Shown here in pieces: positions 7,752 through 39,829 of a stretch of DNA of 40,000 nt (the stretch's first letter is position 1; each line of letters begins with the position of its first letter). This stretch comes from Alphaproteobacteria bacterium (GTDB lineage: Bacteria; Pseudomonadota; Alphaproteobacteria; Bin65): contig OZ244891.1 in assembly GCA_965221475.1 (NCBI GenBank), forward strand, positions 2,590,191 through 2,630,190, in the 5' to 3' direction. The position numbers and the translations under genes were made by a program. The notes below the pieces were generated by a model that saw only the letters and a list, made by a program, of their open reading frames with translations, did not search any database and had not been told where the DNA came from.

Positions 7752-8926
7752 CTCTTCGGCAGGCCGAGCGCCTTCTCGGCGATATGCGACAGGATCAGCT
7801 CGCGCGATACCGGCGCGATGCGGCAGATCATGACCTCGCGCAGCAGCCGCTCGACATGGAATTCCTTGGCATAGCCCATGCCGCCATGGGCCAGTACGGC
7901 CCGCTCGCACGCCCGGAACCCGGCCTCGGCGGCGAGATATTTGGCGGCGTTGCATTGCGGGCCACAGGGCTTGCCGGCATCGTACAGGCCGGCGGCGTGG
8001 CGCACGGTGAGCCATGCGGCGCCGAGTTCGGCCCAGGATTCGGCGAGCGGATGCTGAACCGCCTGGTTCTGGCCGATCGGCCGCCCGAATACGATCCGCT
8101 CCCTGGCATAGCCGGCGGCCCGGCGCAGCGCCTGCTGGCCGATGCCGACCGCCTCCGCGGCGACCAGGCAGCGTTCGGGATTGAGCCCGTGCAGCAGACA
8201 TTCGAAGCCCTGACCCTCGGCCCCGATCCGGTCTTCGGCCGGGACCTGCAGCCCGTCGATGAACAGCAGGTTCGAATCGACCGCCTTGCGGCCCATCTTG
8301 TCGATCTCCCGCACCTCGATCCGGTCCCGGTCGAGCGCGGTGAAGAACAGAGAGAGGCCGTCGGTCGGCCGCCGGCACTCCTCGCGCGGCGTCGTGCGGG
8401 CGAGCAGCAGGATGCGGTCGGCGACCTGGGCGGTCGAGGTCCAGATTTTCTCGCCGGAGATCGTATAGCCGGCATTGCTGTCCGGTCCGGCGCGCACGGC
8501 CCGGGTCCGGATGTTCGTCGTGTCGAGGCCGGCATTCGGCTCGGTGACGGCGAAACAGGCCCGGATCCGGCCCGCGATCAGATCGGGCAGCCAGCGCTCC
8601 TTCTGCCCGTCCGTGCCGTAAACGACGATGGGATGGGGGCCGAAAATGTTCATGTGAATGGCGGAGCAGGCCGCCATCGCGCCCGGCGACTGTGCGACCC
8701 GGCGCATCATGACGGCGGCTTCGGCGATGCCGAGGCCGGCGCCGCCCTGGGCTTCGGGCATGGCGATGCCGAGCCAGCCGCCTTCCGCCATCGCGGCGTG
8801 GAATTCGAACGGGAAGCCGCCTTCGCGGTCGCGCTCCAGCCAGTAATCGTCGCCAAAACGGTCGCAGATCGCACCGACCGCCGCGTCGATCCGGGTCTGG
8901 TCTTCGGTCAGGTCTGAATCGTCCAT
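7745..8926 (-). CDS. acyl-CoA dehydrogenase family protein
   Basis: MDDSDLTEDQTRIDAAV...YWLERDREGGFPFEFHAAMAEGGWLGIAMPEAQGG...AFAVTEPNAGLD...KIWTS...AHGGMGYAKEF show the ACAD fold pattern. ATG 8926 is preferred over track start 9022. Confidence 0.85.
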   Translation of the reverse strand: MDDSDLTEDQTRIDAAVGAICDRFGDDYWLERDREGGFPFEFHAAMAEGGWLGIAMPEAQGGAGLGIAEAAVMMRRVAQSPGAMAACSAIHMNIFGPHPIVVYGTDGQKERWLPDLIAGRIRACFAVTEPNAGLDTTNIRTRAVRAGPDSNAGYTISGEKIWTSTAQVADRILLLARTTPREECRRPTDGLSLFFTALDRDRIEVREIDKMGRKAVDSNLLFIDGLQVPAEDRIGAEGQGFECLLHGLNPERCLVAAEAVGIGQQALRRAAGYARERIVFGRPIGQNQAVQHPLAESWAELGAAWLTVRHAAGLYDAGKPCGPQCNAAKYLAAEAGFRACERAVLAHGGMGYAKEFHVERLLREVMICRIAPVSRELILSHIAEKALGLPKSY

Positions 8927-11848: not shown

Positions 11849-13051
11849 TCAGCCCTCGTAGCGGCCGACGATGGAGACGCTGGAGACATTCTGGTGCGGG
11901 AAGCCGCCCAGATTGTGGGTGAGGCCGATCTTCGGGTCGGCGAGCTGGCGCGCGCCGGCCCGGCCCTGAAGCTGCAGATACATTTCATAGAGCATGCGCA
12001 GGCCCGAAGCGCCGATCGGGTGGCCGAAACATTTCAGGCCGCCGTCGATCTGGCACGGAATCCGGCCGTCGGCATCGTAGAAGCCGTCCAGAATATCCTT
12101 CCAGGCCGTGCCCTCTTCGGAAAGATACAGGTCTTCCATGGTCACCAGTTCGGTGACCGAGAAGCAGTCATGGACCTCGAACATGCTCACTTCTTCGCGC
12201 GGCCGGTTTATGCCGGCTTCCTTGTAGGCCCGTTCGGCGGCGCGGCGTGTGGTCATGAAATAGCTGCCGTCCCAGGAATTGTGGCTCGCCTCCTGGCCGT
12301 TGGAAACGGCGAGCTGCAGCGCCTTGACGCTGACAAGGTCCCGCTTGCCGAGGCTGCGGGCGATCTCCGGCGTGGCGACGATGGCGGCGGCCGACCCGTC
12401 GGAGACGCCGCAACAGTCGAACAGGCCGAGCGGTTCGGCGACCATCGGCGCGTTCAGCACCGTATCGATGTCGATTTCCCGGCGCAGATGGGCCTTCGGA
12501 TTTTTCGCGCCGTTGGCGTGGCTCTTGACCGAAACCTGGGCCATCGCCTTCTTGAGATCGTCGGCCGCCACGCCGTGCTTGGCCGAATAGGCGGTGGCGA
12601 GCTGGGCGAAGCTGCCGGGCGCCGAGGCATTCGGCCAGTACATGTCGGCCACCGCCCCGCGCATGCGCTGGGGCAGGCCGCCATAGCCGGTGTCCTTCAG
12701 CTTCTCGACGCCGACCGCCAGCGCGATGTCCGCGGCCCCGGATGCCACGGCATAGCAGGCGCCGCGGAAGGATTCGGTGCCCGAGGCGCAATAGTTCTCA
12801 ACCCTCGTCACCGGGATGTAGGGCAGGCGCAGGCTGACCGCGAGCGGCACGCCCGACTTGCCGACATGCTGTTCCTCGATCGCTGTCGAGAACCAGGCGG
12901 CGTCGATCCGGCTGCGCTCGATGCCGGCGTCCTCCAGGCATTCCTCGACCGCCTCGACGATCAGGTCTTCGGCGTTCATGTCCCAGCGCTCGCCGAATTT
13001 CGAGCAGCCCATGCCCAGAATCGCCACCTTGTCCTTGATGCCGCGTGCCAT
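11849..13051 (-). CDS. SCP-x / lipid-transfer-type thiolase
   Basis: MARGIKDKVAILGMGCSKFGERWD, nucleophile Cys in VENYCASGTE, and C-terminal CFGHPIGASG. ATG 13051 is preferred over track start 13096. Confidence 0.85.
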   Translation of the reverse strand: MARGIKDKVAILGMGCSKFGERWDMNAEDLIVEAVEECLEDAGIERSRIDAAWFSTAIEEQHVGKSGVPLAVSLRLPYIPVTRVENYCASGTESFRGACYAVASGAADIALAVGVEKLKDTGYGGLPQRMRGAVADMYWPNASAPGSFAQLATAYSAKHGVAADDLKKAMAQVSVKSHANGAKNPKAHLRREIDIDTVLNAPMVAEPLGLFDCCGVSDGSAAAIVATPEIARSLGKRDLVSVKALQLAVSNGQEASHNSWDGSYFMTTRRAAERAYKEAGINRPREEVSMFEVHDCFSVTELVTMEDLYLSEEGTAWKDILDGFYDADGRIPCQIDGGLKCFGHPIGASGLRMLYEMYLQLQGRAGARQLADPKIGLTHNLGGFPHQNVSSVSIVGRYEG

Positions 13052-13141
13052 GTTCCGTGCTCCCGCTCGCTGTCGTTCTGTCCCTTTATCGCCCACTCTA
13101 CGGCCGGAAAGGCCTCGGGTGAAGCGGCTTTGCGTGCAAAC

Positions 13142-13489
13142 CTACTCCGACCAGACGGCCAGTTCGTTGCCGTTCGGATCGAGGAAATGAAAGCGCCGGC
13201 CGCCGGGAAATTCATAGATCGGCTTCACGATCCGGCCGCCCGCGGCCTCGACCCCGGCGAGGGTCGCCGGCAGATCGCGGGCATAGATCACCGGCAGGAT
13301 GCCGGGCGCCGTCGCCTGCGCGCCGTCCAGGCCGTTGAAGCCGCCATCGATGCCGGCGCCGGCAAAGCTGATATAGTCGGGGCCCCAATCGGTGAACTGC
13401 CAGCCGAAGGCCCGGCCATAGAAGGCTTTGGTTCCCTCATTGTCGGCGAGCGGCAGTTCGATATAGTCGATATGGCAGTCCGTGCTCAT
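13142..13489 (-). CDS. VOC (glyoxalase/bleomycin-resistance fold) family protein
   Basis: 115 aa: MSTDCHIDYIELPLAD...FHFLDPNGNELAVWSE. The ATG at 13489 overlaps the stop of the upstream HAD gene (ATGA). The rest of track ORF 13142..13837 is out-of-context extension. Confidence 0.7.
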   Translation of the reverse strand: MSTDCHIDYIELPLADNEGTKAFYGRAFGWQFTDWGPDYISFAGAGIDGGFNGLDGAQATAPGILPVIYARDLPATLAGVEAAGGRIVKPIYEFPGGRRFHFLDPNGNELAVWSE

Positions 13490-14208
13490 GCCTCGACCCC
13501 CAGGGCACGGGCCAGGTCCGGGAAGCTGTCGACGACGATATCGCAGGCCGGGTTCGCATCCGGGTCGGGCGGGCCTTCCGGGCCCCATTCGTCGGGCCGG
13601 CGCACGAAGGCGGTACGGAAGCCGACCGCCCGGGCCGCGTCCAGATCCCAATTGTGGCAGGCCACCATCAGGCAGGCGCCCGGCTCGACCTGCAGGCGGT
13701 GCGCCACGGTGCGGTAGCTCTCCGGCAGCAGCTTGTATTTGCCGATGCCTTCGCAGCTGAATACGGCATCCCAGGATAGACCGTTCTGTCGAGCTGTATC
13801 GAGAATCAGCCGATAGGACAGGATGGTGAAGGAGCACACCAGATAGCGCTCGCGCAGCCGGGGCAGCATGGCCGGAAAGTCCGGCCAGCAGGAGAAGCGG
13901 TGCGGCGCCTCGCGGGCGATGGCGTGGATGTCTTCCGCCGTGAAGGCGTCCAGCCCGTGCTCCCGCACGACCGCTTCGGTCGCCTCCCGGTGGGCGTCGT
14001 CGAAATTCCGGTCCGGCGGTTCGTGCTCGCCCAGATTGAGCATGGCCTTAAGGCTGCGGCGGCGCAGATCGTTGACGAGCGCCGACCAGTCGCGCTCGAC
14101 GCCGCGGCGGGCGCCGGCGGCGGCGAAGGCGTCGCGGAAACCGCTGTGCCAGTCGAGGATCGTGCCGCCGGTATCGAAGGTGAGGGCCGCGATATCGTCC
14201 GGATTCAT
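13486..14208 (-). CDS. HAD superfamily hydrolase, haloacid dehalogenase type II-like
   Basis: N-terminal nucleophile motif LTFDTGGTILDW. 240 aa. ATGA overlap with the upstream gene. Confidence 0.75.
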   Translation of the reverse strand: MNPDDIAALTFDTGGTILDWHSGFRDAFAAAGARRGVERDWSALVNDLRRRSLKAMLNLGEHEPPDRNFDDAHREATEAVVREHGLDAFTAEDIHAIAREAPHRFSCWPDFPAMLPRLRERYLVCSFTILSYRLILDTARQNGLSWDAVFSCEGIGKYKLLPESYRTVAHRLQVEPGACLMVACHNWDLDAARAVGFRTAFVRRPDEWGPEGPPDPDANPACDIVVDSFPDLARALGVEA

Positions 14209-15692
14209 GCCCCGTCTCCCGCGCCATGGTCCGGCGTCGCTTTCCAGAAATACTTGATGAAGCCGCGCTTCTCATCGACCGCGCGGCGGCGGAACACCAT
14301 GCGCACCGGCATGCCGACCGCGACCTCGCCGGGCGCGACATCGGTCATGTCGGCCATCAGCCGTCCGCCGCCGTCGAACACGACCATGCCGAAATGGGCC
14401 GGCGGGTCGGGCGAATAGGTCAGATTGTCGGCGGTCCAGCTCTGCACCTTCGCCGGCAGCTCGGCGAAGGGGTGCGGGTCCTGGCTGTTGAAGGCGCCGC
14501 AGTTCGGGCCGACGCAGGCCCGCGTCCTCGGATATTGCACCGTGCCGCACACCCGGCATTTGCCGCCGACGAAGCCGAGCACCATGTTGCGATTGCGATA
14601 GAGGGCGCTCAGCGCGGTCGGCGCATCGAGCTCGGCCCGGATGCCGCGATCCTGGTCCACCAGGTCGTTGAAGCTGAGATAGCGGTTGTAGTTGCTCTCG
14701 GCCCGGCGCCGGGCGAGATAGCCCTTCACGCCCTGGCGCGGCGGCAGCGTTTTCAGCGCCGGTGCGGTGCGGAACAGCAGTACATCGCAGCCCTGGCCCC
14801 AGCCGAGCATGAGGATCGTCCGTTCCGGTTCGGCCTCCTGCAGACAATCGGCCAGCATGACCAGCGGATGGGCGGTGCCGGCCTCGCCGAGCTGGGCCTG
14901 CATGGTATCGCGCACCGCGCCGGCGTCGATGCCGCTCAGCGTTGCCACCTTCTGCGGCACGCCGCGGATCAGCGCCGGCATGATGAAATGGTCGATATCG
15001 GCACCGGTCAGACCGGTCTGTTCTAGTGCCGCCTCGATGGCGCGCGGTGCGATCCTGAAATAGCCCTCGTCGCGGATCCAGCGTTCCTCCCAATTATAGT
15101 CGTATCGGGAATCGCCGCCGCGATAGTGATCGACGAAGTCGATGGAAAGCTGGTGCCCGCCCAGATATTCGGCAATCGGTTCGCCGCGGCCGACCGTGAA
15201 TGCCGCCGCCGCATCGCCGAACTGCAGCTCCTGCGGACCGGAGGCGCGGGTCCGGCGCTTGTCCGCCGCGACCACCAGCGTATCGCCGCCATTGGCGTTG
15301 CGCAGGGCGTTCATCAGGCCGGAGGTGCCGGCGCGCTGCGAGCCGGCGAAGTCCATTGTCGCCACGGTCTCGTCGAAATTGAGCGCGGTGGCGAGGATGC
15401 CGGCATTCTGCCGGTCGTCGAACGGCAGGGTGGTCGAGGCGAAGGTCAGTGCCGCAACCGCCGGCTGCGCGCCCTCGTCCAGCCGGGCCGGGGTCAGGCA
15501 GTCGCGCGCCGCCTCGACGGCCATGGTCAGGCTGTCCTCGTCCCAGTTGCAGATCGCGCGCTCGCCGCGGGCGAGGCCCTTGATGGCCGGGTTGAACCAG
15601 GCGTTGGCCTCGGCGATGGCCTTGCGGCTCAGCCGCAGCCGCGGGACATAGGCGCCATAGGCCTTCAGGCCGACTGTATCGGTGCCGGTCAT
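14205..15692 (-). CDS. HMG-CoA synthase-like condensing-enzyme domain fused to a DUF35 zinc-ribbon/OB-fold domain
   Basis: The N-terminal roughly 370 aa resemble HMGCS/KAS-III (AYGAYVPRLRLSRKAI...NWDEDSLTMAVEAA). The C-terminal part has a Zn ribbon (GGKCRVCGTVQYPRTRACVGPNCG) followed by an OB-fold-like tail. ATG 15692 is in frame within track ORF 14205..16097, whose first 135 codons overlap the crotonase gene and are rejected. Confidence 0.75.
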   Translation of the reverse strand: MTGTDTVGLKAYGAYVPRLRLSRKAIAEANAWFNPAIKGLARGERAICNWDEDSLTMAVEAARDCLTPARLDEGAQPAVAALTFASTTLPFDDRQNAGILATALNFDETVATMDFAGSQRAGTSGLMNALRNANGGDTLVVAADKRRTRASGPQELQFGDAAAAFTVGRGEPIAEYLGGHQLSIDFVDHYRGGDSRYDYNWEERWIRDEGYFRIAPRAIEAALEQTGLTGADIDHFIMPALIRGVPQKVATLSGIDAGAVRDTMQAQLGEAGTAHPLVMLADCLQEAEPERTILMLGWGQGCDVLLFRTAPALKTLPPRQGVKGYLARRRAESNYNRYLSFNDLVDQDRGIRAELDAPTALSALYRNRNMVLGFVGGKCRVCGTVQYPRTRACVGPNCGAFNSQDPHPFAELPAKVQSWTADNLTYSPDPPAHFGMVVFDGGGRLMADMTDVAPGEVAVGMPVRMVFRRRAVDEKRGFIKYFWKATPDHGAGDGA

Positions 15693-15787
15693 GCTTCTCT
15701 TGTTTCCCTGGGCTTCGGGGGCATGGTGCCGGCGCATTGTGCCAGAGGCGCGCGCCGGCGTCGCGCCCCTTGTCGCCGCGCCGGCGG

Positions 15788-16582
15788 TCAGGCGCTGCCG
15801 GCCCGGCGGAAATCCGGCCGGCGCTTGTTCAGGAAGGCGTCGAAGCCGATCCGCGTCTCCTCGTCGGCGAAGGCATCGCAGATGAAGCCCGCCTCCATGG
15901 CGAGCTGCTCGCCGAAACTGTTGCCGGGCGCGGCCTCGATCAGCCTCTTGATCCGGCCGATGGCATTCTGCGGCCCGTCGGCGAGGCGGCGGGCCAGTGC
16001 CATCGCCTCGTCCAGGGCGCCGCCGGAATCGGTCAGCCGGTTGACGATGCCGTGCCGGTGCAGGGTCCCGGCATCGACCGGATCGCCGAACAGGCACAGT
16101 TCGCTCACCGTATGCCGGGGCAGCAGGCGCATCAGCGAGGCGGTGGCGCCGCCGTCCGGGCTGAGGCCGATCTTCACATAGGCGACGACATATTTCGCAT
16201 CGCGCGACGACACGAGCAGATCGCAGGCCAGGGCGAGCGAGACGCCGGCGCCGGCCGCGACCCCCTCGACCGCGGCGATGATCGGCCGGGGACAGGCGCG
16301 GATCGCCTCGATCCAGCCATGGAGCAGCCGGACCGAGGCCATGCTGTCCGAGCGCGGCAGCTGCCGCCGCTCGGGGAAATTGCCGACATTGCCGCCGGAA
16401 CAGAAGACGCCGTTCGCCCCGGTCAGCACGACGGCGCGCACCGCCGGATCGCGGCCGGCGTCTATGACCGCCGCTGTCGCCTTCTCATAGATGTCGCGGG
16501 CAATCGCGTTGCGGGTCGCCGGATCGTCCAGGGTGAGGAGCAGGATATCGTCCCGGCGTTCGATATGGATCTGGGCAGGCAT
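15788..16582 (-). CDS. enoyl-CoA hydratase/isomerase (crotonase) family protein
   Basis: VVLTGANGVFCSGGNVG and AAVEGVAAGAGVSLALACDL crotonase motifs. 264 aa. Confidence 0.88.
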   Translation of the reverse strand: MPAQIHIERRDDILLLTLDDPATRNAIARDIYEKATAAVIDAGRDPAVRAVVLTGANGVFCSGGNVGNFPERRQLPRSDSMASVRLLHGWIEAIRACPRPIIAAVEGVAAGAGVSLALACDLLVSSRDAKYVVAYVKIGLSPDGGATASLMRLLPRHTVSELCLFGDPVDAGTLHRHGIVNRLTDSGGALDEAMALARRLADGPQNAIGRIKRLIEAAPGNSFGEQLAMEAGFICDAFADEETRIGFDAFLNKRRPDFRRAGSA

Positions 16583-16785
16583 GGTCTCTGTCGCGTCCGA
16601 TCAGGGGGAGGAGGGGACCGGTATGTCAGCATATGCCGGCAAATGTAAGGGGCGGCATTGCAGCCGGGCCGGCTGCGCTTGCCTTGCCGGCGCGCCCTCG
16701 CCTACGCTGGCGCCAGACCGGCCGCATCCGCAGCCGGCCCCCATGACAGCGCCGGATGGCGGCGCTTCGCAGACCGGAGGACACG

Positions 16786-17064
16786 ATGAGATACGTCATG
16801 CTCGGCAGGCAGAGCCGCGACTGGCTGGGGCGGCACGAGGAGCGCAAGCGGCTGGCGCTCGCCAGGGCCGGCGAGCTCGGCATCGAATTCCACTCGATCC
16901 ACTACACCCAGGGCGCCTTCGACTTCGTCGATATCGCCGATGCGCCGTCGCCCGAGGCGATGCTGAAATTCTCCGTCTGGTACGCACAGCAGGGTTTCGG
17001 CTCGTTTCAGAGCCTGCCCGCCTTCGACGACGAGGCCATGGCGGCAGCAGCGCGGGAGGCATAG
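16786..17064 (+). CDS. GYD domain-like small protein
   Basis: MRYVMLGR...HYTQGAFDFVDIADAPSPEAMLKFSV...FQSLPAF follows the GYD-domain pattern. GGAGG lies 5 nt upstream of ATG 16786, which is in frame within track ORF 16756..17064. Confidence 0.65.
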   Translation: MRYVMLGRQSRDWLGRHEERKRLALARAGELGIEFHSIHYTQGAFDFVDIADAPSPEAMLKFSVWYAQQGFGSFQSLPAFDDEAMAAAAREA

Positions 17065-17086
17065 CCCCGCCCTCTCGCGGCCGGGG

Positions 17087-18235
17087 TCAGAACTTGCCGT
17101 CGGTCGAGGGGTAGGCGTCGATCCCGAGCGTACCGCGAAAATCCGCCGACATCGCGGCCTTCTGGTCTTCCAGCGGGATGCCGGTCGCGTCGGCAATCCG
17201 CACCACGGCGTTGAAGATGGCGAGGACGGCGGCGGCATCGACCGTCGCCGCATCGCCGATTTCGGCCTGCAGCCGGGCGCGCGCCGCGGCGAAGTCGCCG
17301 CCATCGGCAAAGAAGGCGTCGGCATAGCCGGTCAGCGCCGCGGCGCCGGCGACCCCGCGGCCCGGTGCGGCGTCCGGTCCGCCGTCCGCGACGATGGCGG
17401 TCAGATCGTAGTCGTCGCCGCTATGCTCGCCGCTCCCACGGAGCAGCACCGCGTGGCTGGTGGTTCAGTAGACGCACTGGTTGATCGCCGACACCCTGGC
17501 GGCCAGGAACTCGATCTGGGCGTGGGTCAGCGCCCGGTATTCGGTGCCGAAATCCCGCAGCACCGCATCGGGCAGATAGTGGACCGCATCGAGGTCGAAG
17601 AAGCCGGTCGTCTCCGACGGGACGAGGGAGAGGGCGCGGTGGATGTTCACACCGGCCAGGCCGTCATACAGGCCGGCCTCGGCCCCGGTGACATCTTCCG
17701 GCGCCACCGTTGCAACCCAGGCGAGGCCGGGTTTCGCGCCGGCCGGCCGGTGCCGGCGCGGCTCGCCGGCCGCCGGGTCCGGCAGTTCGTGGCGCGGCAG
17801 GCCCATGGCATCGCAGAAACTGTCGATGGCGACGACCGTGGCGACGATGCCGACGGTCTCGACATATTCGCCTTCGCTCAACCCCTGCGCCAGGGCGCGC
17901 TCGCAGAAGCGCCGGGTCAGCCGGCCGGCATCGGTGCGGATGCGGTGGACGACATCGATGAGATTTTCCGGCAGCGCCGTCGCCGCGTCGTGCCTGCCGG
18001 TCACGGCTTCGGGCGAGAGCGCCGCCTTGCGCTGGCGGCAGAGGGCGCAATCCGGCGCGGCGCGGGTTTCGCGGGCGATGGCGATGCGGACCGCGCCGGG
18101 CCACCATTCGCCGGGTGCTGCCAGCCGGGCCCAGGCGCGCCTGTGGGCCGCGACCAGATCGTCGCGCACCGGCAGAGGGCTGTGGCGATAGTCCAGCGTT
18201 GGGACCGGAGCGGCGGGCATCGGTTCGGCGGGCAT
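17087..18235 (-). CDS. AhpD/carboxymuconolactone-decarboxylase (CMD) family peroxidase-related protein with in-frame TGA (17465-17467), a probable selenocysteine in a C-V-Y-U redox motif
   Basis: Track ORFs 17465..18325 and 17087..17449 share a frame, since their offset of 378 nt is 126 codons. They are separated only by the TGA and five sense codons. The joined sequence ...FLAARVSAINQCVY-[TGA]-TTSHAVLLRGSG matches the CMD motif S..N.C.YC...H, with TGA at the second Cys. The N-terminal half carries a second CxxC (DCALC). Start ATG 18235 or 18220 lies just downstream of the trmFO stop. Confidence 0.6.
17428..17448 (-). promoter_or_regulatory. candidate bacterial SECIS hairpin downstream of the in-frame UGA
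   Basis: The mRNA 5'-UGCUGCUCC-GUG-GGAGCGGCG-3' forms a 9-bp stem (two G-U pairs) with a GUG apical loop. The stem starts 17 nt after the UGA and the loop starts 26 nt after it. It was folded by eye only. Confidence 0.4.
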
Positions 18236-18273
18236 GGGAACGGAACCCCTGCAAGGCGCAACAGGGCAGGGAT

Positions 18274-19692
18274 TTAAGGGCCGGCGGCGCGTCTGGGAAG
18301 GCCGGCAACGGCGGCTTCGGCACATGGCCGGGCCAGCCAGCGGTCGAGATCGGCGAGCGCGCGCTGCGCCATCGCCTGCCTGCGCGCCCGCCCCTTTGGC
18401 CGGCGTCCGCCCGGCATCGCATCCTCAGCCGGCGGCGGCATCAGGCCGAAATTGACGTTCATCGGCTGGAAGCTGTCGGCCGCCGCGCCGCCGGTGATGT
18501 GCCCCAGCAGCGCGCCGAGAGCGGTGGTCTCCGGCGGCGGCGCGAAGGGGCTGCCGCGCCGTTCCGCCGCCGCCATGCGGCCGGCCAGCAGCCCGATGGC
18601 CGCGCTTTCGACATAGCCCTCGACGCCGGCGACCTGGCCGGCGAAGCGCAGGCGCGGCGCGGCCTTCAGGCGCAGCTGGCCATCCAGCAGAAGCGGGCTG
18701 TTCAGGAAGGTATTGCGGTGGATGCCGCCGAGCCGGGCGAAGCGCGCCTGCTCCAGCCCCGGAATCGTGCGGAAGATCGCGGTCTGGGCGCCGTGCTTCA
18801 GCCGGGTCTGAAAGCCGACCATGTTGAACAGGGTGCCGAGCGCATTGTCCTGGCGCAGCTGCACCACGGCATGGGCGCGCCGGCCGGTGCGCGGATCGGT
18901 CAGGCCGACCGGCTTCATCGGCCCGTAGCGCAGGGTCTCGCGGCCGCGCTCGGCCATCACCTCGATGGGCAGGCAGCCTTCGAACCAGGGCGTATCCTTC
19001 TCCCAGTCCCGCAACGCCGTCTTTTCGCCGGCGATGAGGGCATCGATGAAGCCGTTGTACTGCGCTTCGTCCAGCGGGCAGTTGATATAGGCCTGCCGGT
19101 CGCCGCCGGGGCCGGCCCGGTCGTAGCGCGACTGGCGCCAGACGATGCTTTCGTCGACCGAATCGACATGGACGATGGGGGCGATGGCGTCGAAGAAGGC
19201 CAGCGACTCCTCGCCGGTCAGGTCGATGATCGCCTGCGCCAGCGAAGGCGAGGTCAGCGGGCCGGTGGCGACGATGGTGCTGCCCCAGTCGGCCGGCGGC
19301 AGGCCGGCGATCTCGCCGCGCCGGATATCGACCAGCGGATGCGCCTCCAGCCGGCCCTGCACCGCGGCGGCGAAACCGTCCCTGTCCACCGCCAGGGCGC
19401 CGCCGGCCGGCACCTTGTTGGCATCCGCCGCCGCGAGGATCAGCGAGCCGCAGCGCCGCATCTCCTCGTGCAGCACGCCGATGGCGCTGGTCTGGGCATC
19501 GTCGGACCGGAAGGAATTGGAGCAGACCAGCTCGGCAAGCCGGTCGGTGCGATGGGCGTCCGTGCCGCGCTGCGGCCGCATTTCGTGCAGGACGGCCGGC
19601 ACACCGGCGCCGGCCGCCTGCCACGCCGCTTCGCATCCGGCTAGGCCGCCGCCGACGATATGGACGGGCGCGAGGGAGGAGGTTCCGGTCAT
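18274..19692 (-). CDS. trmFO: methylenetetrahydrofolate--tRNA-(uracil-5-)-methyltransferase TrmFO
   Basis: [20 protein letters not shown]-binding N-terminus, followed by [14 protein letters not shown] and [20 protein letters not shown]. 472 aa. Confidence 0.92.
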
Positions 19693-30820: not shown

Positions 30821-31858
30821 TCAGCTTGCCGCGGTCAGCCGCAACAGGTGTCCGCCGGCATCGATGGCGCAGGCCGAGGTGCCGGGAAAGCGGGCGAGCG
30901 CCTGCCTGATGCCGGCCGGCGGCAGAAGGAACCCGGCCGTGGACAGGCCGTCCGCGACGGCAGCGGACGGCGCGACCACGCTGAGGCTGGCGTATCGCCG
31001 CACCGGCCGGCCGGTGCGCGGATCGAGAATATGGCCGAAGCGGCCGGCACCGTCGAAATGCGTGCCGCCCTCGCCCGAAGTCGCGACGGCGGCGTCGCTG
31101 AGGCTAAGCGTCGTGGCGATTTCGCCCGGCATGCCGGGCCTGGCGATGCCGACCCGCCACGGCCGGCCGGCCGGATGGCCGCCGACGGCGCCGATTTCGC
31201 CGAGATCGACCAGCGCATGGGCCAGCCCGCGCCGGCGCATGAGGCGGGCCACCCGGTCGCCGATATAGCCCTGGGCGATGCCGTTCAGGGTGAGCGCCAT
31301 GCCCGGCCGGCCGAAGGAAATGCGCCCGCCGCTGCGCCGCACATGGCGCCAGCCGACCCGTGCCAGCGCGCGGTCGATGGCCGGTTGCGGCGGCCCGGTA
31401 CGGTCTTCGGGCCGGCGGGCGAAATGGGCGGCGTAGAGCTGCCACAGGGGCTGGACGGTCGGGTCGAAGGCGCCGCCGCCGGCCCGGTGGATGCGCTGCA
31501 CCAGGGCGAGCAGGGCGCGCAATTCCGCCGGCGGCGCGTCCAGCGCGCCGGTCCGGTTGAGGCGCGACAGGGCCGAATCCGGCCGGTAGAGGCTGAAAAT
31601 CCCCTCCAGCCGCGCGATCTCGCGGCGGCATTCGGCGATCAGCCGCCCGGCCGCCGGCGCGGCAAGGCCGGCGATTGCCAGGCTGGCCCGTGCGCCCAGC
31701 ACGATCCCGGACCAGCGGTGCAGCGGCGCGCCGGCCGCCGCGGCCCGGCCGGCCGGCAGCGCGGCAGCAAGCGCCGTGCTGCCGGCGATGGCGATGAAGC
31801 GCCGGCGTCCCGGCCGCCCCGGCCCGGCTGCGCCGCCGCGCGGATCGGCATCGTTCAT
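30821..31858 (-). CDS. nosX: ApbE-family FAD:protein FMN transferase NosX
   Basis: Twin-arginine signal GRRRFIAIAGS and ApbE-like core (LNGIAQGYIGDRVA...). It holds the last position of the nos cluster, and its start overlaps the nosL stop (ATGA). Confidence 0.88.
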   Translation of the reverse strand: MNDADPRGGAAGPGRPGRRRFIAIAGSTALAAALPAGRAAAAGAPLHRWSGIVLGARASLAIAGLAAPAAGRLIAECRREIARLEGIFSLYRPDSALSRLNRTGALDAPPAELRALLALVQRIHRAGGGAFDPTVQPLWQLYAAHFARRPEDRTGPPQPAIDRALARVGWRHVRRSGGRISFGRPGMALTLNGIAQGYIGDRVARLMRRRGLAHALVDLGEIGAVGGHPAGRPWRVGIARPGMPGEIATTLSLSDAAVATSGEGGTHFDGAGRFGHILDPRTGRPVRRYASLSVVAPSAAVADGLSTAGFLLPPAGIRQALARFPGTSACAIDAGGHLLRLTAAS

Positions 31859-32403
31859 CGTTCGCCGTCCTTCCCGCCGCTCTTTTGCCCGCCCGTATCC
31901 GCTTCGGAGCCGCCGAGAATGTAGTCGCGCGGGATGGCGGAGAAGGCCACTGTCCGGCCGCCATGCCGCCGGGCGAAGGCACGGGCTGCACCCTCGCCGG
32001 CGAACGGGACGGCCTCCGGCGCGCCCATGCCGCCGCGCCTCGTGCTGCCGATGACGTAGAAGGCGCTGCGGGCCGGAATCCAGGTGTCCGGCCCCGGCCG
32101 GTCCCAGGGCGTCGCCGTCATGTCGTTGACGAAGATGGCGGCGATCCGCTTCGGCTCCTCCGGCAGCATGGTGAACGCGATGGTATCGCGCACGCTGCTG
32201 AAGAAAACCGGCGGCTGCCCTGCAAGGTGAATCTGGCCCTTGGGGCCGGGGTGATCGAGCACGATCATCCGGCAGTAATGGCCGCGGTGCTCGCGGTTGA
32301 GGGCGACCGGCGCGACGCTCGCGGCCGGCGTGCCGTCGTCGCAGCCGGCCAGGGCGAGCGCCAGCAGCGCCGCGGCCGCGCCGTGCCGGAACCGGCCGCT
32401 CAT
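31855..32403 (-). CDS. nosL: copper chaperone lipoprotein NosL
   Basis: Lipobox LALAGC, followed by HRGHYCRMIVLDHPGPKGQI and VNDM motifs. It corresponds to the last 183 codons of track ORF 31855..33264. ATG 32403 overlaps the nosY stop. Confidence 0.88.
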   Translation of the reverse strand: MSGRFRHGAAAALLALALAGCDDGTPAASVAPVALNREHRGHYCRMIVLDHPGPKGQIHLAGQPPVFFSSVRDTIAFTMLPEEPKRIAAIFVNDMTATPWDRPGPDTWIPARSAFYVIGSTRRGGMGAPEAVPFAGEGAARAFARRHGGRTVAFSAIPRDYILGGSEADTGGQKSGGKDGER

Positions 32404-33227
32404 CGCAGATCGCTCCGCCGGAAGACGAGGGCGGCGAGCGCCAGCGGCACGCCGGTCCACAGGATCAGGACGCCGATGAGCAGCGCCGGGTCCAGGCGGA
32501 CCGCCCCGCCCACGCTCGCCATGCCGGCGAAGGTGCGGACATCGTCCAGCAGGGTCAGATTGAACAGGCGGTAGACATCGGTCGGGTTGAGCATCAGGAC
32601 GAAGGGCAGCGTGCCGGGGCCGAGCGCTCGGGACGTATCGGCCGCCAGTGCGCCGAGCAGCGCCATGTCGAACAGCAGGGCGAACAGAAGCCAGACGGCG
32701 AGTGCGAGGCCGGCCGCCATGGCCCGCTCCTTCGCCACGGCGCTGACGAGAAGGCCGATGGCAGCGAAGGCCGTGCCGAGCAGGACCGTCGATCCGATCA
32801 GGGCGAGGAAGCCGCCGGCGCCGGCGGTGCTGCCCTGCACCGCCGCTACCGCAAGCCCGGCGCTGCCATAGCCGACGATAACGGCAAACGCGACGATGGC
32901 GGCATGGCCGAGGAATTTTCCGGCCACCGCGGCGCCGCGCGAGACCGGGCACGACATCAGCAGGAGCAGCGTGCCCCGTTCGGCTTCGCCGGCGATGCTG
33001 TCGAAGGTGAGCAGCAGCGCGATCAGCGGCACCAGGAAAACCGACAGGCTTGACAGGCTGACGACGGTGACGGCGAGCGCCGATGCCCTGACATTGCCGG
33101 CCGGCGTGCTGCCGAGAAAGGCCAGCGTTACCGCCAGCAGGGTGAGGATCAGCGTCGCGCCGAGGACCCAGCGGTTGCGCATCCCTTCGCGGATTTCCCG
33201 GCCGGCGAGGGCGAATACGGCCGTCAT
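32400..33227 (-). CDS. nosY: ABC-2 type permease NosY
   Basis: 275 aa with six hydrophobic segments, located between nosF and nosL. Confidence 0.88.
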   Translation of the reverse strand: MTAVFALAGREIREGMRNRWVLGATLILTLLAVTLAFLGSTPAGNVRASALAVTVVSLSSLSVFLVPLIALLLTFDSIAGEAERGTLLLLMSCPVSRGAAVAGKFLGHAAIVAFAVIVGYGSAGLAVAAVQGSTAGAGGFLALIGSTVLLGTAFAAIGLLVSAVAKERAMAAGLALAVWLLFALLFDMALLGALAADTSRALGPGTLPFVLMLNPTDVYRLFNLTLLDDVRTFAGMASVGGAVRLDPALLIGVLILWTGVPLALAALVFRRSDLR

Positions 33228-34186
33228 GCCGGTCCCGCTGCCGAACCGGGCGGGGCGGGGGCATCCCCGGCCGCCATGTGCCGGTGGTAGATCTCTTCCA
33301 GGCGCGGCGGGCGGATATCCACCGTACCGCCGAGCTCGACCTCGCCGAGCCGGCGCAGCACTTCGGCCTGCCGGTCGAGGCGGCAGCGCAGCTCGATCCG
33401 CTGGCCGTTGCAGCGCTCGACCGGGGCGATGTCGGCGAGGCGGCGGCTCAGGCCGGCAGCCGCGGCGGGCGGCGCCTGAATGCGGATGCGCACCGGCAGG
33501 CCGCTCTGCGCCTGCAGGGCGGCGACCGTTCCGCAGGCGACCAGCCGGCCGGCGCGCAGCAGGGCGATCCGGTCGGCATGTTCCTCGATCTCCGGCAGGG
33601 TGTGGGAGGACAGGATAATCGTGGCGCCGGCCCGCCGGCGCTCGGCCAGCAGATCGTAGAAGCGGCGGCGCGATTCAGGGTCGAGGCCGGTCGTCGGCTC
33701 GTCCAGGATCAGCAGGTCGGGCGCGCCGAGCAGCATCTGGGCCAGCCCCAGGCGCTGGCGCATGCCGCGGGACCAGGTCTTCACCCGCCGGGCGGCGGCC
33801 GCATCGAGCCCGACTGCCTCCAGCAGACCATCGCACTGCGCCGCCGGCGCGCCCTTGAGCCGGGCGAAGAAGCGCAGCATCTCGCGGCCGGTCAGATTGC
33901 CGGCGAAGCTGACATTTTCCGGCAGGAAGCCGATCCGTCGGCGCAGCCCGGCCGCCGCGCGGCTGCACGGGTCCGCGCCGAACACGCGCACCGCGCCGGC
34001 GCTCGGCGGCAGCAGGCCGAGCATGAGCCGGAACAGGGTGGACTTGCCCGCGCCATTGTGCCCGGCCAGCGCCAGAAACTCGCCCGGCGCGATCTCGAGG
34101 TCGATCCGGTCGAGCGCAGCGACAGTGCCGAAGCGCCGGCTGGCACCGGCGAGCCGCACGACCGGCGGGGCAGGGGGCGCCGCCAT
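33224..34186 (-). CDS. nosF: ABC ATPase NosF
   Basis: Walker A GHNGAGKST, signature WSRGMRQRLG and Walker B LILDEPTTGLD. Confidence 0.9.
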   Translation of the reverse strand: MAAPPAPPVVRLAGASRRFGTVAALDRIDLEIAPGEFLALAGHNGAGKSTLFRLMLGLLPPSAGAVRVFGADPCSRAAAGLRRRIGFLPENVSFAGNLTGREMLRFFARLKGAPAAQCDGLLEAVGLDAAAARRVKTWSRGMRQRLGLAQMLLGAPDLLILDEPTTGLDPESRRRFYDLLAERRRAGATIILSSHTLPEIEEHADRIALLRAGRLVACGTVAALQAQSGLPVRIRIQAPPAAAAGLSRRLADIAPVERCNGQRIELRCRLDRQAEVLRRLGEVELGGTVDIRPPRLEEIYHRHMAAGDAPAPPGSAAGPA

Positions 34187-34190
34187 CGCC

Positions 34191-35480
34191 TCACTCGCGC
34201 CAGAATGTGGGCCGGGCCGGCTGCACCGCCCGCATGAGCGGTGCGCTGTCGACCACGCCGCCGGGGTAGATCGCCGGAAAATGCGATTGCGCCCAGCGCA
34301 GCATCCGGGTTGCCGGGCTGTTCAGCAGGATTTTCGCCGACGGATGGGTCCAGACGATGCGGTCGACGATGCCGTTCGGCCGATAGGGGGCGTCGGCGAT
34401 GCCGTCGCCGTTCAGGTCGAAGGCGGCATGGTCGCTCCAGTAATTGCCCCGGCCGTCGCGCGACCAGTCGAGGGAGCGGGTGCCGACATATTTGACCTGC
34501 CGCCGGTTGCCGAGAAAGGCGTTGCCCGACAGGGCGTTGCGTTCCGACCCGGCGGTGAAATGGATGCCGATCCGGCAGCCGCCGAAGCGGTTGTCGCGAA
34601 AGCGGTTCCGGTTCGCGTTGTAGATGAAGACGCACTTCTTCGGCCCGGCGAGCACGGTGTTGCGCGCAATCGACGACCGGTTGGCGAAATTGAGCAGCAG
34701 GCCGTGTTCGCGGTCGCCGCGCGACAGGTTTCCGGTCACCTCGATGCGCCGCGAATACATGATCGCGAAGCCGATATCGTTGCCGATGGAGATGTTGCGG
34801 CGGACGGCGCTGCGGTTCGTATACATGTAGTGGACGGCAAAGCGCAGGTCGCGCATCCGGTTGCCGATGAAGCGGTTGTGCCGGCTGGTCTCGACGAAAA
34901 TGCCGTCGCGGCCGTAGAGAATATCGTTCTCCACGATGCGCGAACCCGGCGTGTTCCACAGCTGGATGCCGTTGCCGCGCTCGTTCTCGCGCAGGTCGCG
35001 CCGGCCGATGACGACATTGCGCCGGACGCGCGCCTCCTTCGGCCCCAGAAGGTAGATGCCGAACAGGTTGCCGGTGAGCCGGTTGTGCGCGACGACGGCG
35101 CCGCCTGCGCCCTTCTCCAGCTTGATCCCGGCATCCATGGCCTCGAGGCTGGCGCCGGAATTGCGCACGATGAGGCCCTCGATGCGGATGCCGGGGGCGG
35201 TCGCGACGATGACGGAGCCCCGGCCGCCGCCATCGACGATGGCGCCGGCCTCGCCGCGCAGGACCACCGGCCGGCGGAGGTGCACCGGCCCCCGGTGAAC
35301 CCCGGCCCCGAGCACAACGACATCGCCGGCCGCCGCCCGGTCGAGCGTCCGGGCGAGCCGGTCTCCGCCGGGGGCGACCGTGTGGGTCGCCGCCATGGCG
35401 GGCGCGGCCGCGGCAAGGGCGGCGGCGCAGAGCGCGCCGCCCCGCCGCGCACCGTTCGGCCGGGCGATGCCGGAGGGCAC
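34191..35480 (-). CDS. nosD: periplasmic beta-helix protein NosD
   Basis: Signal peptide followed by repeated parallel-beta-helix (carbohydrate-binding/sugar-hydrolysis-like) segments. It holds the position between nosZ and nosF. The GTG start at 35480 is uncertain. Confidence 0.88.
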   Translation of the reverse strand: MPSGIARPNGARRGGALCAAALAAAAPAMAATHTVAPGGDRLARTLDRAAAGDVVVLGAGVHRGPVHLRRPVVLRGEAGAIVDGGGRGSVIVATAPGIRIEGLIVRNSGASLEAMDAGIKLEKGAGGAVVAHNRLTGNLFGIYLLGPKEARVRRNVVIGRRDLRENERGNGIQLWNTPGSRIVENDILYGRDGIFVETSRHNRFIGNRMRDLRFAVHYMYTNRSAVRRNISIGNDIGFAIMYSRRIEVTGNLSRGDREHGLLLNFANRSSIARNTVLAGPKKCVFIYNANRNRFRDNRFGGCRIGIHFTAGSERNALSGNAFLGNRRQVKYVGTRSLDWSRDGRGNYWSDHAAFDLNGDGIADAPYRPNGIVDRIVWTHPSAKILLNSPATRMLRWAQSHFPAIYPGGVVDSAPLMRAVQPARPTFWRE

Positions 35481-35490
35481 GGCGCCGGGC

Positions 35491-37440: not shown

Positions 37441-37476
37441 TCTCCGTTCGCTGGTGGGTCGGGGGATGCGTTGCGG

Positions 37477-39711: not shown

Positions 39712-39815
39712 GCGTCGGACCAAATGCGTGTCCCCCGCCGGGTTTGCGGACGGCCGGCGGCGCCGAAACGCCAACCGGCAACGCCAATCCATAGGCCGCC
39801 CCTGCCGGCAGCGCC

Positions 39816-39829
39816 TTGACATGAATCAA
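39816..39829. promoter_or_regulatory. FNR/Dnr/NnrR-type (CRP-FNR family) binding box upstream of nosR
   Basis: TTGAC-ATGA-ATCAA matches the consensus TTGAT-N4-ATCAA with one mismatch. It is centred about 111 bp upstream of the preferred nosR start codon. Confidence 0.55.

What the first reader, a model, noticed from the sequence alone, without database searches (positions are those of the whole stretch)
17087..18235. In-frame TGA at the second Cys of an AhpD/CMD CxxC motif: probable selenoprotein (C-V-Y-U) split into two ORFs
Seen in sequence:
- ORFs 17465..18325 and 17087..17449 are in the same frame.
- They are separated only by TGA (17465-17467) plus five sense codons.
- The joined sequence reads ...IEFLAARVSAINQCVY-TGA-TTSHAVLLRGSGEH...
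- G/C-rich third codon positions continue without interruption across the TGA.
- The downstream piece has no ATG or Shine-Dalgarno of its own; the track merely starts it at an internal GTG.

Established knowledge: the carboxymuconolactone-decarboxylase/AhpD 'peroxidase-related' fold has the conserved motif S-x2-N-x-C-x-Y-C-x3-H. Its CxxC pair is the redox centre. AhpD-like proteins are a known bacterial selenoprotein family with a CxxU motif.

Inference: here the TGA sits exactly on the second Cys position, so it is probably read as selenocysteine. The product would be one protein of about 382 aa. A standard gene caller would output two fragments or a pseudogene.
Basis: partly seen in the sequence, partly recalled or inferred. 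Interest (0 to 1): 0.8.

Follow-up and report, generated by a model that had tools for sequence, protein, structure and literature searches.

The report
Known AhpD-related selenoprotein gene, mis-split

Summary
On the minus strand a single reading frame runs from 18235 to 17087. It is interrupted only by TGA at 17467-17465, inside ...SAINQ-C-V-Y-TGA-T-T-S-H.

With Cys in place of the stop, the 382-aa protein matches NCBIfam NF041238, "alkylhydroperoxidase-related (seleno)protein" (AhpD_rel_CFYUT). The score is 464 bits against a cut-off of 175, over the whole profile.

- All 97 related loci fetched from genomes and metagenomes (46-81% identity) carry TGA at this column, followed by 113-126 open codons where the sequence is complete.
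- Of the 120 best database homologues, 119 are gene calls cut exactly at N-x-C-x-Y. One full-length homologue has Cys there.
- dN/dS after the TGA (0.17-0.29) matches that before it (0.14-0.28).
- The 13 codons after the TGA are almost frozen at synonymous sites. They form a conserved hairpin with a (C)GUG(N) loop, 20 nt from the UGA, as expected of a bacterial SECIS.
- In relatives the gene lies beside selA-selB-selC (3 loci) or selD (2 loci).
- TGA is also this gene's real terminator and the commonest stop in the window, so the code is not reassigned.

Not tested: Sec machinery in the source genome itself. A 2026 review lists NF041238 as "hypothetical protein 1" of the 2005 Sargasso Sea selenoproteome, so the family is already known.

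The parts
17087..18235 (-). Complete coding sequence of the selenoprotein: 382 residues plus the terminator. ATG at 18235-18233. The real stop is TGA at 17089-17087.
   Evidence: Translation. NF041238 match of 463.9 bits covers residues 23-376 and profile positions 1-356 of 357. Public gene calls P0001 (256 aa) and P0242 (120 aa) on one 3,111,988-bp contig are its two halves.
17465..17467 (-). In-frame UGA, predicted selenocysteine codon (residue 257).
   Evidence: TGA at the aligned column in 97 of 97 related loci. Cys in P0105 and in PDB homologues 6k40 and 2oyo.
17453..17476 (-). Redox motif C254-V-Y-U257-T-T-S-H261, with the invariant Glu242 fifteen residues before U257 (codon 17510-17512).
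   Evidence: Glu242 is invariant in alignment A1 and aligns with a Glu in 6k40.
17428..17448 (-). Predicted SECIS hairpin. 5' arm 17440-17447 (GCUGCUCC), loop 17437-17439 (GUG), 3' arm 17429-17436 (GGAGCGGC), plus a possible U-G closing pair at 17448/17428. The stem starts 20 nt after the U of UGA.
   Evidence: -14.4 kcal/mol, z = -2.58 for the 27-nt hairpin. The 6-bp core is paired in 71-72 of 72 distinct sequences, with G-C to A-U by way of G-U, C-G to U-G, and U-G to U-A.
17429..17467 (-). Block of near-invariant nucleotides, TGAACCACCAGYCAYGC..YTGCTCCGTGNGAGCRGC. Synonymous sites are frozen here, showing RNA-level constraint laid over the coding sequence.
   Evidence: Third-position entropy is 0.157 here against 0.86 elsewhere. 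The gene-wide minimum of a 13-codon sliding window sits at the Sec column. At columns with an invariant amino acid it is 0.112 against 0.643, p = 2.9e-4. Alignment.
18038..18049 (-). Second conserved dithiol motif, C63-A-L-C66, in the N-terminal domain.
   Evidence: Both Cys are invariant in alignment A1. hhalign places C63xxC66 on C254xxU257, E = 0.0018. Its role is inferred only.

Best explanation
Window 18235-17087 (minus strand) is one gene. It encodes a 382-residue selenoprotein of the AhpD-related family NF041238, an all-helical protein whose C-terminal half belongs to the carboxymuconolactone-decarboxylase/AhpD (CMD) superfamily.

**Decoding (inferred from conservation, not measured).** The UGA at 17467-17465 is read as selenocysteine. 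The mRNA hairpin 20 nt downstream (17448-17428, loop GUG) is bound by the Sec-specific elongation factor SelB carrying Sec-tRNA(Sec). This delivers Sec to the ribosome in competition with release factor 2. The same gene's terminal UGA at 17089-17087 has no such hairpin and terminates normally.

**Chemistry (inferred from motif and homology).** Sec257 takes the place of the second Cys of C-x-x-C-x-x-x-H, with His261 four residues after it and the invariant Glu242 fifteen residues before it. From my own knowledge of M. tuberculosis AhpD, this spacing matches Glu118/Cys130/Cys133/His137, where the second Cys is the attacking nucleophile. The protein is therefore most likely a selenol/thiol oxidoreductase. 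Sec257 would attack an oxidised substrate (a peroxide, or a sulfenic acid or disulfide on a partner protein). The resulting Se-S bond with Cys254 would then be re-reduced. The natural substrate and reductant are unknown.

The invariant N-terminal C63xxC66 may be a second redox or relay centre; that is speculation.
For: **Family.** NF041238 equivalog match, E = 3.7e-139, 463.9 bits against a cut-off of 175, full profile.

**Homology across the stop.** The Cys-form homologue P0105 (376 aa, 48% identity) covers 94% of the protein and reads CFYC. PDB CMD/AhpD-type proteins align over residues 235-353 with CVYC or CLYC on CVYU (6k40 E = 1.1e-7, 2oyo E = 6.9e-5).

**Conserved TGA.** 17 of 17 genome loci and 80 of 80 metagenome loci (46-81% identity) have TGA at the column. 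In the 15 genome loci and the window where the sequence is complete, 113-126 open codons follow before the next stop. 119 of the 120 best database hits end at N-x-C-x-Y. The downstream halves are deposited as separate 83-133-aa proteins, many on the same contigs as the upstream halves.

**Selection.** The per-position entropy pattern is the same after the TGA (0.37/0.43/0.85) as before it (0.37/0.37/0.86). dN/dS of the window gene against seven relatives is 0.17-0.29 after the TGA and 0.14-0.28 before it.

**SECIS.** Synonymous sites are frozen only in the 13 codons after the TGA. The hairpin is conserved with compatible and compensatory changes and has a G-containing small loop. [quoted passage not shown]

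**Link to Sec machinery in relatives.**
- tRNA-Sec lies next to the gene in L074, L090 and L094.
- selA and selB are Pfam-confirmed in L074 and L094. Only selB fragments are seen in L090, where the locus begins inside selB.
- An Ndh-SelD fusion lies 0.7-1.8 kb downstream in L015 and L016.

**No code reassignment.** TGA ends 21 of 28 window genes, this one included.
Against: - No selA, selB, selC or selD lies in the 40-kb window. I could not search the rest of the source genome. A SelD search did not return a hit on the source contig, but it listed only 120 of 7,999 hits, so this says nothing either way.
- Covariation in the hairpin is thin because the element is so conserved. Only one pair changes on both sides within the 6-bp core RNAalifold predicts (2 sequences); the outermost pair of the 8-bp helix adds one more cell, and that pair is unpaired in 26 of 72 sequences.
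- In its 48-nt context the fold is no more stable than shuffled G+C-rich sequence (z = -0.27; z = 0.09 for 76 nt).
- No Rfam family matches.
- The Pfam CMD and TIGR00778 matches fall just under their cut-offs.
- Structure predictions were poor (mean pLDDT 59).
- No experiment shows selenium in this protein.
Confidence: 0.92

Rival explanations
1. The Sec-decoding trait has been lost in this particular genome, or the UGA is suppressed by a near-cognate tRNA (Cys or Trp). The gene is then a relic or yields a non-selenium protein.
For: Sec machinery in the source genome was not found or tested.
Against: The TGA, the hairpin and 125 downstream codons are all intact. The hairpin (stem and loop) is identical to that of 11 of the 17 genome loci. 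dN/dS for comparisons that include this gene is 0.17-0.29 downstream of the TGA. Bacteria that lose the trait would be expected to convert TGA to Cys codons or lose the gene (my own expectation, not checked here).
Confidence: 0.05
2. It is a pseudogene or a sequencing/assembly error: a Cys codon (TGC/TGT) hit by a nonsense change.
For: TGA differs from TGC or TGT by one base. Public annotation of the contig lists two separate fragments.
Against: The same TGA is present in 97 of 97 independent loci from sponge, marine, freshwater and soil assemblies at 46-81% identity. Purifying selection continues after it. A curated (seleno)protein model exists for the family.
Confidence: 0.02
3. These are two real genes: a 256-aa protein ending at ...NQCVY, and a separately initiated 120-aa protein starting at the GTG at 17449.
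For: Gene callers output exactly this (P0001 and P0242).
Against: The split would cut the C-x-x-C-x-x-x-H active site and the CMD domain in two. The Cys form P0105 is one continuous protein. The five codons between the TGA and the GTG (TTSHA) are among the most conserved in the gene.
Confidence: 0.01

Closest known systems
NCBIfam NF041238, AhpD_rel_CFYUT, 'alkylhydroperoxidase-related (seleno)protein'. [quoted passage not shown]
   Same: Full-length equivalog-level match (463.9 bits). Same length class. Same CxxU motif followed by T. Sec at the same column.
   Different: Only the residue after the first Cys differs: V here, F in the family's name. V, F and L all occur among relatives. Nothing else stands out.
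Classical short 'AhpD-like' selenoproteins (TIGR01926 / COG2128, CxxU). These are abundant in ocean metagenomes: 'AhpD-like 1' has 299 sequences in GOS (PMC2398784).
   Same: CMD-type C-terminal domain, CxxU with His at +4, SECIS immediately after the UGA.
   Different: Those proteins match a model of about 180 residues with one domain. This one scores only 39.6 bits against the TIGR01926 cut-off of 81.8. It also has an extra N-terminal domain of roughly 200 residues with its own invariant CxxC.
Mycobacterium tuberculosis AhpD (TIGR00777) and solved CMD-family 'peroxidase-related' proteins (PDB 6k40, 2oyo, 3c1l).
   Same: Motif E-x14-C-x-x-C-x-x-x-H with identical spacing. Sequence homology over residues 235-353. 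These suggest the working model of a CxxC-type peroxidase/disulfide reductase.
   Different: These proteins use Cys, not Sec. TIGR00777 scores 14.5 bits against a cut-off of 191.95, so this is not an AhpD orthologue. No ahpC or lipoamide-system genes were found among the ORFs annotated near the gene.
E. coli fdhF-type bacterial SECIS / SelB recoding system.
   Same: Hairpin inside the coding region just after the UGA, with a small apical loop carrying G-U. selA-selB-selC or selD lie next to family members.
   Different: The stem starts 17 nt after the UGA. From memory, the minimal fdhF element sits about 11 nt after it. The sequence is family-specific and is almost invariant across 97 loci.

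Membership tests
NF041238 AhpD-related (seleno)protein | Whole-protein HMM score above the curated cut-off, over the full profile | tested here: met
   463.9 bits against 175; profile positions 1-356 of 357; E = 3.7e-139.
NF041238 AhpD-related (seleno)protein | C-x-Y-U-T motif with U (or Cys) at the conserved column | tested here: met
   C-V-Y-TGA-T here. In the relatives the residue after the first Cys is mostly V, F or L (with H, T, Y, E in a few), and the stop codon was confirmed as TGA in all 97 fetched loci. CFYC in P0105.
Bacterial selenoprotein gene | In-frame UGA aligned with Cys in homologues that continue through it | tested here: met
   P0105; 6k40 and 2oyo.
Bacterial selenoprotein gene | Coding sequence under purifying selection downstream of the UGA, in the same frame | tested here: met
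   Entropy pattern. dN/dS 0.17-0.29 downstream against 0.14-0.28 upstream.
Bacterial selenoprotein gene | SECIS stem-loop immediately 3' of the UGA with a small G-containing apical loop | tested here: met
   Hairpin at +20 to +38, loop GUG or CGUGN. Core pairs kept in 71-72 of 72 sequences. Frozen synonymous sites. Covariation is sparse, and thermodynamics alone are not distinctive.
Bacterial selenoprotein gene | selA, selB, selC and selD present in the same genome | not testable with these tools
   None in the 40-kb window. The source genome could not be searched. Relatives have selA-selB-selC (L074, L094), selB-selC (L090) or selD (L015, L016) adjacent to the gene.
Bacterial selenoprotein gene | Selenium actually incorporated at the UGA | not testable with these tools
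   Needs 75Se labelling or mass spectrometry.
CMD/AhpD superfamily (Pfam PF02627, TIGR00778 core domain) | Domain HMM above the gathering score | tested here: inconclusive
   PF02627 22.0 bits against 23; TIGR00778 26.3 against 27.8. Both are just under. Homology to solved CMD proteins is significant (6k40, E = 1.1e-7). The top Foldseek hits of a poor model are the same proteins.
CMD/AhpD superfamily | Catalytic E...C-x-x-C-x-x-x-H arrangement | tested here: met
   E242, C254, U257, H261. Glu, the first Cys and the position of the second all align with 6k40.
TIGR01926 peroxidase-related enzyme (classical 'AhpD-like' selenoprotein) | HMM score above the cut-off | tested here: not met
   39.6 bits against 81.8.
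TIGR00777 AhpD proper | HMM score above the cut-off | tested here: not met
   14.5 bits against 191.95.

The most novel reading that the evidence does not exclude
The protein may be an internally duplicated, two-centre redox enzyme. An N-terminal repeat with the invariant C63xxC66 would relay electrons to the C-terminal C254xxU257. Separately, the gene, with its almost invariant family-specific SECIS, may travel together with the Sec machinery as a small 'Sec trait plus client' module. Support for the second idea: selA-selB-selC or selD lie beside the gene in 5 of 97 loci, one locus has a second selenoprotein gene nearby, one has a tandem duplicate, and near-identical elements occur in MAGs labelled Alpha- and Gammaproteobacteria and Gemmatimonadetes. 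In some lineages this gene could be a main reason the Sec trait is kept. None of this is shown. The duplication rests on one hhalign E-value of 0.0018. The adjacency is a minority pattern. The taxon labels may reflect binning errors.
Probability: 0.15. Interest if true: 0.45.

Novelty: already known. Interest (0 to 1): 0.22.

Why it matters
The practical value is annotation. Public records of this contig and of more than a hundred relatives list the gene as two 'hypothetical' fragments of roughly 250 and 110-120 residues. The true product is one selenoprotein, and it implies that the organism decodes UGA as Sec and needs selenium. The source appears to be an uncultured alphaproteobacterium whose closest relatives are MAGs. 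For such an organism this is a small but real physiological clue: a selenium-dependent thiol/peroxide redox enzyme encoded in the same 40-kb window as a nitrous-oxide reductase cluster. It does not open a new question. The family, its CxxU motif and its SECIS-type recoding are already catalogued. Only its substrate remains unknown.

Tried and rejected
- **Sec machinery in the source genome.**
  - The exact look-up of P0001 found no contig.
  - I took the Ndh-SelD fusion beside the gene in L015 and searched the protein database for a hit on the 3,111,988-bp source contig. None of the 120 listed hits matched. The list was saturated at about 50% identity, with 7,999 hits in all, so the result is uninformative.
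- **Structure.**
  - Two AlphaFold runs on the Cys-form homologue P0105 gave mean pLDDT of only 58.7 and 59.1. Just the N-terminal domain (first run) and the last 90 or so residues (second run) were confident.
  - MAFFT aligned the C-terminal fragments onto the N-terminal domain, which spoiled a combined alignment.
- **Rfam.** No SECIS or other family matched at the site, even at E up to 10.
- **Thermodynamics.** The 76-nt and 48-nt contexts fold no better than shuffles. I therefore do not use stability as evidence.
- **Gene neighbourhood for function.** No flanking gene family is shared by more than 9 of 98 loci, so context says nothing about substrate.
- **Other selenoprotein candidates in the window.** The other same-frame TGA junctions separate differently annotated products and look like abutting genes (annotations). 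This was not checked further.
- **Promoter and terminator scan of 16600-18500.** Nothing found.
- **Global TGA reassignment.** Rejected, because TGA ends 21 of 28 genes here.

Full report
**1. The observation**

The region reads on the minus strand.
- The ORF listing gives ORF 17465..18325 and ORF 17087..17449 in one frame.
- Translating 18235-17087 gives 383 codons with one internal stop...THAQIEFLAARVSAINQCVY*TTSHAVLLRGSGEHSGDDY..., ending ...STDGKF*.
- The internal stop is TGA at 17467-17465. The five codons that follow (T-T-S-H-A) precede the GTG that a gene caller uses to start the second piece.
- Third-position G+C stays at 0.82-0.92 on both sides.

The ATG at 18235 is the likely start. 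It is 38 nt downstream of trmFO (18274-19692), and it is the start of the deposited 256-aa fragment P0001.

**2. What the protein is**

With Cys written at the stop, the 382-aa sequence hits NCBIfam NF041238, [quoted passage not shown]. This is an equivalog model. E = 3.7e-139, 463.9 bits against a curated cut-off of 175, covering profile positions 1-356 of 357.

Broader models are weak:

| Model | Score (bits) | Cut-off (bits) |
|---|---|---|
| Pfam CMD (PF02627) | 22 | 23 |
| TIGR00778 | 26.3 | 27.8 |
| TIGR01926 | 39.6 | 81.8 |
| TIGR00777 (AhpD proper) | 14.5 | 191.95 |

Against solved structures, residues 235-353 align with D. radiodurans AhpD 6k40 (E = 1.1e-7) and with the 'peroxidase-related' protein 2oyo (E = 6.9e-5). 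Their N-R-C-V-Y-C-A-V-S-H lies on N-Q-C-V-Y-U-T-T-S-H, and a conserved Glu lies fifteen residues before the second Cys.

**3. Is the TGA read through?**

*Database homologues.* Of the 120 best homologues, 119 are proteins of 234-269 residues (most of them 253) that cover about 65% of the query and end exactly at N-x-C-x-Y. The exception, P0105 (376 aa, named 'AhpD family alkylhydroperoxidase'), covers 94% and has CFYC.

*Underlying DNA.* I fetched 17 loci from one-genome-per-species assemblies and 80 from metagenomes, at 46-81% identity.
- All 97 carry TGA at the column.
- It is followed by T-T-S-H (A-S-S-H in three loci).
- Among the 17 genome loci and the window, the 16 with complete sequence have 113-126 further open codons.

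*Selection.*
- In a codon alignment of 16 complete genes, entropy at codon positions 1/2/3 is 0.37/0.37/0.86 before the TGA. It is 0.37/0.43/0.85 from 14 codons after it to the end. That is the same coding signature.
- Nei-Gojobori dN/dS between the window gene and seven relatives is 0.14-0.28 upstream and 0.17-0.29 downstream.

*Public annotation.* A search with the downstream 125 residues returns 83-133-aa 'proteins' for nearly all of the 120 best hits. Many sit on the same contigs as the upstream fragments, for example P0242 with P0001 on the 3,111,988-bp contig.

*Genetic code.* TGA is not reassigned here. It terminates 21 of 28 confidently placed genes in the window, including this one at 17089-17087.

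**4. The recoding signal**

*Frozen synonymous sites.* The 13 codons after the TGA are nearly invariant at the nucleotide level, even between proteins only 46% identical.
- Third-position entropy is 0.157 there, against about 0.86 elsewhere.
- The minimum of a 13-codon sliding window over the whole gene falls exactly at the Sec column (0.095, against a median of 0.855).
- Restricted to columns where the amino acid never changes, it is 0.112 against 0.643 (Mann-Whitney p = 2.9e-4).

*The hairpin.* The frozen block contains GCUGCUCC-GUG-GGAGCGGC, at +20 to +38 from the U of UGA (window 17447-17429). On its own it folds at -14.4 kcal/mol, z = -2.58.

Across 72 distinct sequences:
- The six core pairs are kept in 71-72 of 72.
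- Changes are G-C to A-U in two sequences (by way of G-U in three), C-G to U-G in 13, and U-G to U-A in 15.
- 87% of cells are paired, against 32-63% when the 3' partners are slid.
- RNAalifold independently returns the same 6-bp helix.
- The loop is GUG, or CGUGN when the closing pair is absent.

*Limits.*
- Covariation is sparse because the element barely varies.
- In its 48-76-nt context the fold is no more stable than shuffled sequence of this 70% G+C genome.
- Rfam has no matching family.

**5. Sec machinery**

The window holds only tRNA-Gly and no selA, selB or selD. I could not reach the rest of the source genome.

Relatives supply indirect evidence.
- ARAGORN finds tRNA-Sec next to the gene in L074 (about 90 nt upstream), L090 and L094.
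- Pfam confirms selA and selB beside selC in L074 and L094. In L090 only selB fragments are visible, because the locus begins inside selB.
- In L015 and L016, a 755-aa Ndh-SelD fusion lies 0.7-1.8 kb downstream. This type of fusion was reported in the GOS study (PMC2398784).
- L094 also carries a UGSC-family gene with its own in-frame TGA, GVGL-TGA-STC.

**6. How it probably works**

*Shown.* One reading frame; a conserved TGA on a Cys column; a conserved hairpin; selection on the downstream part.

*Inferred.*
- SelB with Sec-tRNA(Sec) binds the hairpin and inserts Sec257.
- Sec257, Cys254, His261 and Glu242 form an AhpD-type redox centre. The spacing E-x11-C-x2-U-x3-H equals, from my own knowledge, Glu118/Cys130/Cys133/His137 of M. 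tuberculosis AhpD, where the second Cys is the nucleophile.
- The protein would therefore cycle between selenol/thiol and selenenylsulfide while reducing a peroxide or an oxidised partner.

*Substrate.* Unknown. Gene neighbourhood is not conserved: no flanking family is shared by more than 9 of 98 loci.

*N-terminal half.* This region of roughly 200 residues has an invariant C63xxC66. It aligns weakly with the C-terminal domain, with CxxC landing on CxxU (hhalign E = 0.0018). This hints at an internal duplication and a possible second redox centre, but it is not established.

**7. Comparison with what is known, and verdict**

- AhpD-like CxxU selenoproteins were described in the Sargasso Sea selenoproteome in 2005 (PMC1088965). 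They are among the most abundant marine selenoprotein families (PMC2398784).
[quoted passage not shown] The last is exactly the model this gene matches.

The finding is an instance of a catalogued selenoprotein that ordinary gene callers split. It is correct and useful for annotation, but not novel.

Noticed in passing
window 30821-39825 (minus strand): A nitrous-oxide reductase cluster. NosR-like FMN-bind/4Fe-4S protein at 37477-39825; NosZ at 35491-37440 (propeller and cupredoxin domains); NosD at about 34191-35669; ABC ATPase (NosF-like) at 33224-34321; NosL at 31855-33264; ApbE at 30821-31858. The organism can probably reduce N2O.
   Followed up: partly
L030 4733 and 5852: Two tandem copies of the same selenoprotein gene in one marine metagenome contig. 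Each has its own TGA and the same downstream block.
   Followed up: partly
L074 1-2986; L094 467-3958; L090 3-1610: selA-selB-tRNA(Sec) lies directly beside the AhpD-related gene in L074 and L094. L090 shows selB fragments and tRNA(Sec). In L090 and L094 the tRNA-Sec gene overlaps the 3' end of the selB ORF by about 45-55 nt. This fits the nested selC reported for Alphaproteobacteria (Mukai 2021, cited in PMC13188914).
   Followed up: partly
L094 6946-8700 (minus strand), TGA at 8287-8289: A UGSC-family gene with an in-frame TGA (…AAILGVGL-TGA-STCCPTVV…). This is a probable second selenoprotein, about 1.8 kb from the AhpD-related gene and near selAB-selC.
   Followed up: partly
L015 4829-7096 (minus strand); L016 5926-7086: A 755-aa NADH-dehydrogenase-like/SelD fusion (PF07992 + AIRS domains, motif CGGCGAK) lies convergent with the selenoprotein gene. 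A beta-carbonic-anhydrase-like ORF sits between them; I judged that by eye and did not test it. More than 100 such fusions exist in the database.
   Followed up: partly
window 18038-18049 (C63xxC66) and residues 14-160 against 195-380: The N-terminal domain has an invariant CxxC and aligns weakly with the C-terminal CMD domain, with CxxC on CxxU (hhalign E = 0.0018). MAFFT also placed isolated C-terminal fragments onto the N-terminal domain. This may be an internal duplication.
   Followed up: partly
L013, L014, L017 against L001-L012: Genes 75-79% identical to the window's, with an identical SECIS block, sit in MAGs labelled Gammaproteobacteria and Gemmatimonadetes. The cause could be horizontal transfer or binning/labelling error. 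Not examined.
   Followed up: no
L002-L008, L010, L012, L020, L021 (upstream of the gene) against window 18274-19692: In 11 relatives a tRNA-Pro(UGG) gene lies 0.1-1.8 kb upstream of the selenoprotein gene. In the window the upstream neighbour is trmFO. Synteny is not conserved even among close relatives.
   Followed up: no
window 11849-16097 (minus strand): A thiolase-like 'acetyl-CoA acetyltransferase' (11849-13141; PRK06157, 703 bits) lies 1-3 kb from an HMG-CoA-synthase-like ORF (within 14205-16097; below cut-off). A glyoxalase-type ORF and a HAD-type hydrolase sit between them. An 'oxepin-CoA hydrolase, alternative type' enoyl-CoA hydratase follows at 15788-16600. This may be an acyl-CoA or aromatic degradation cluster. 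Not pursued.
   Followed up: no
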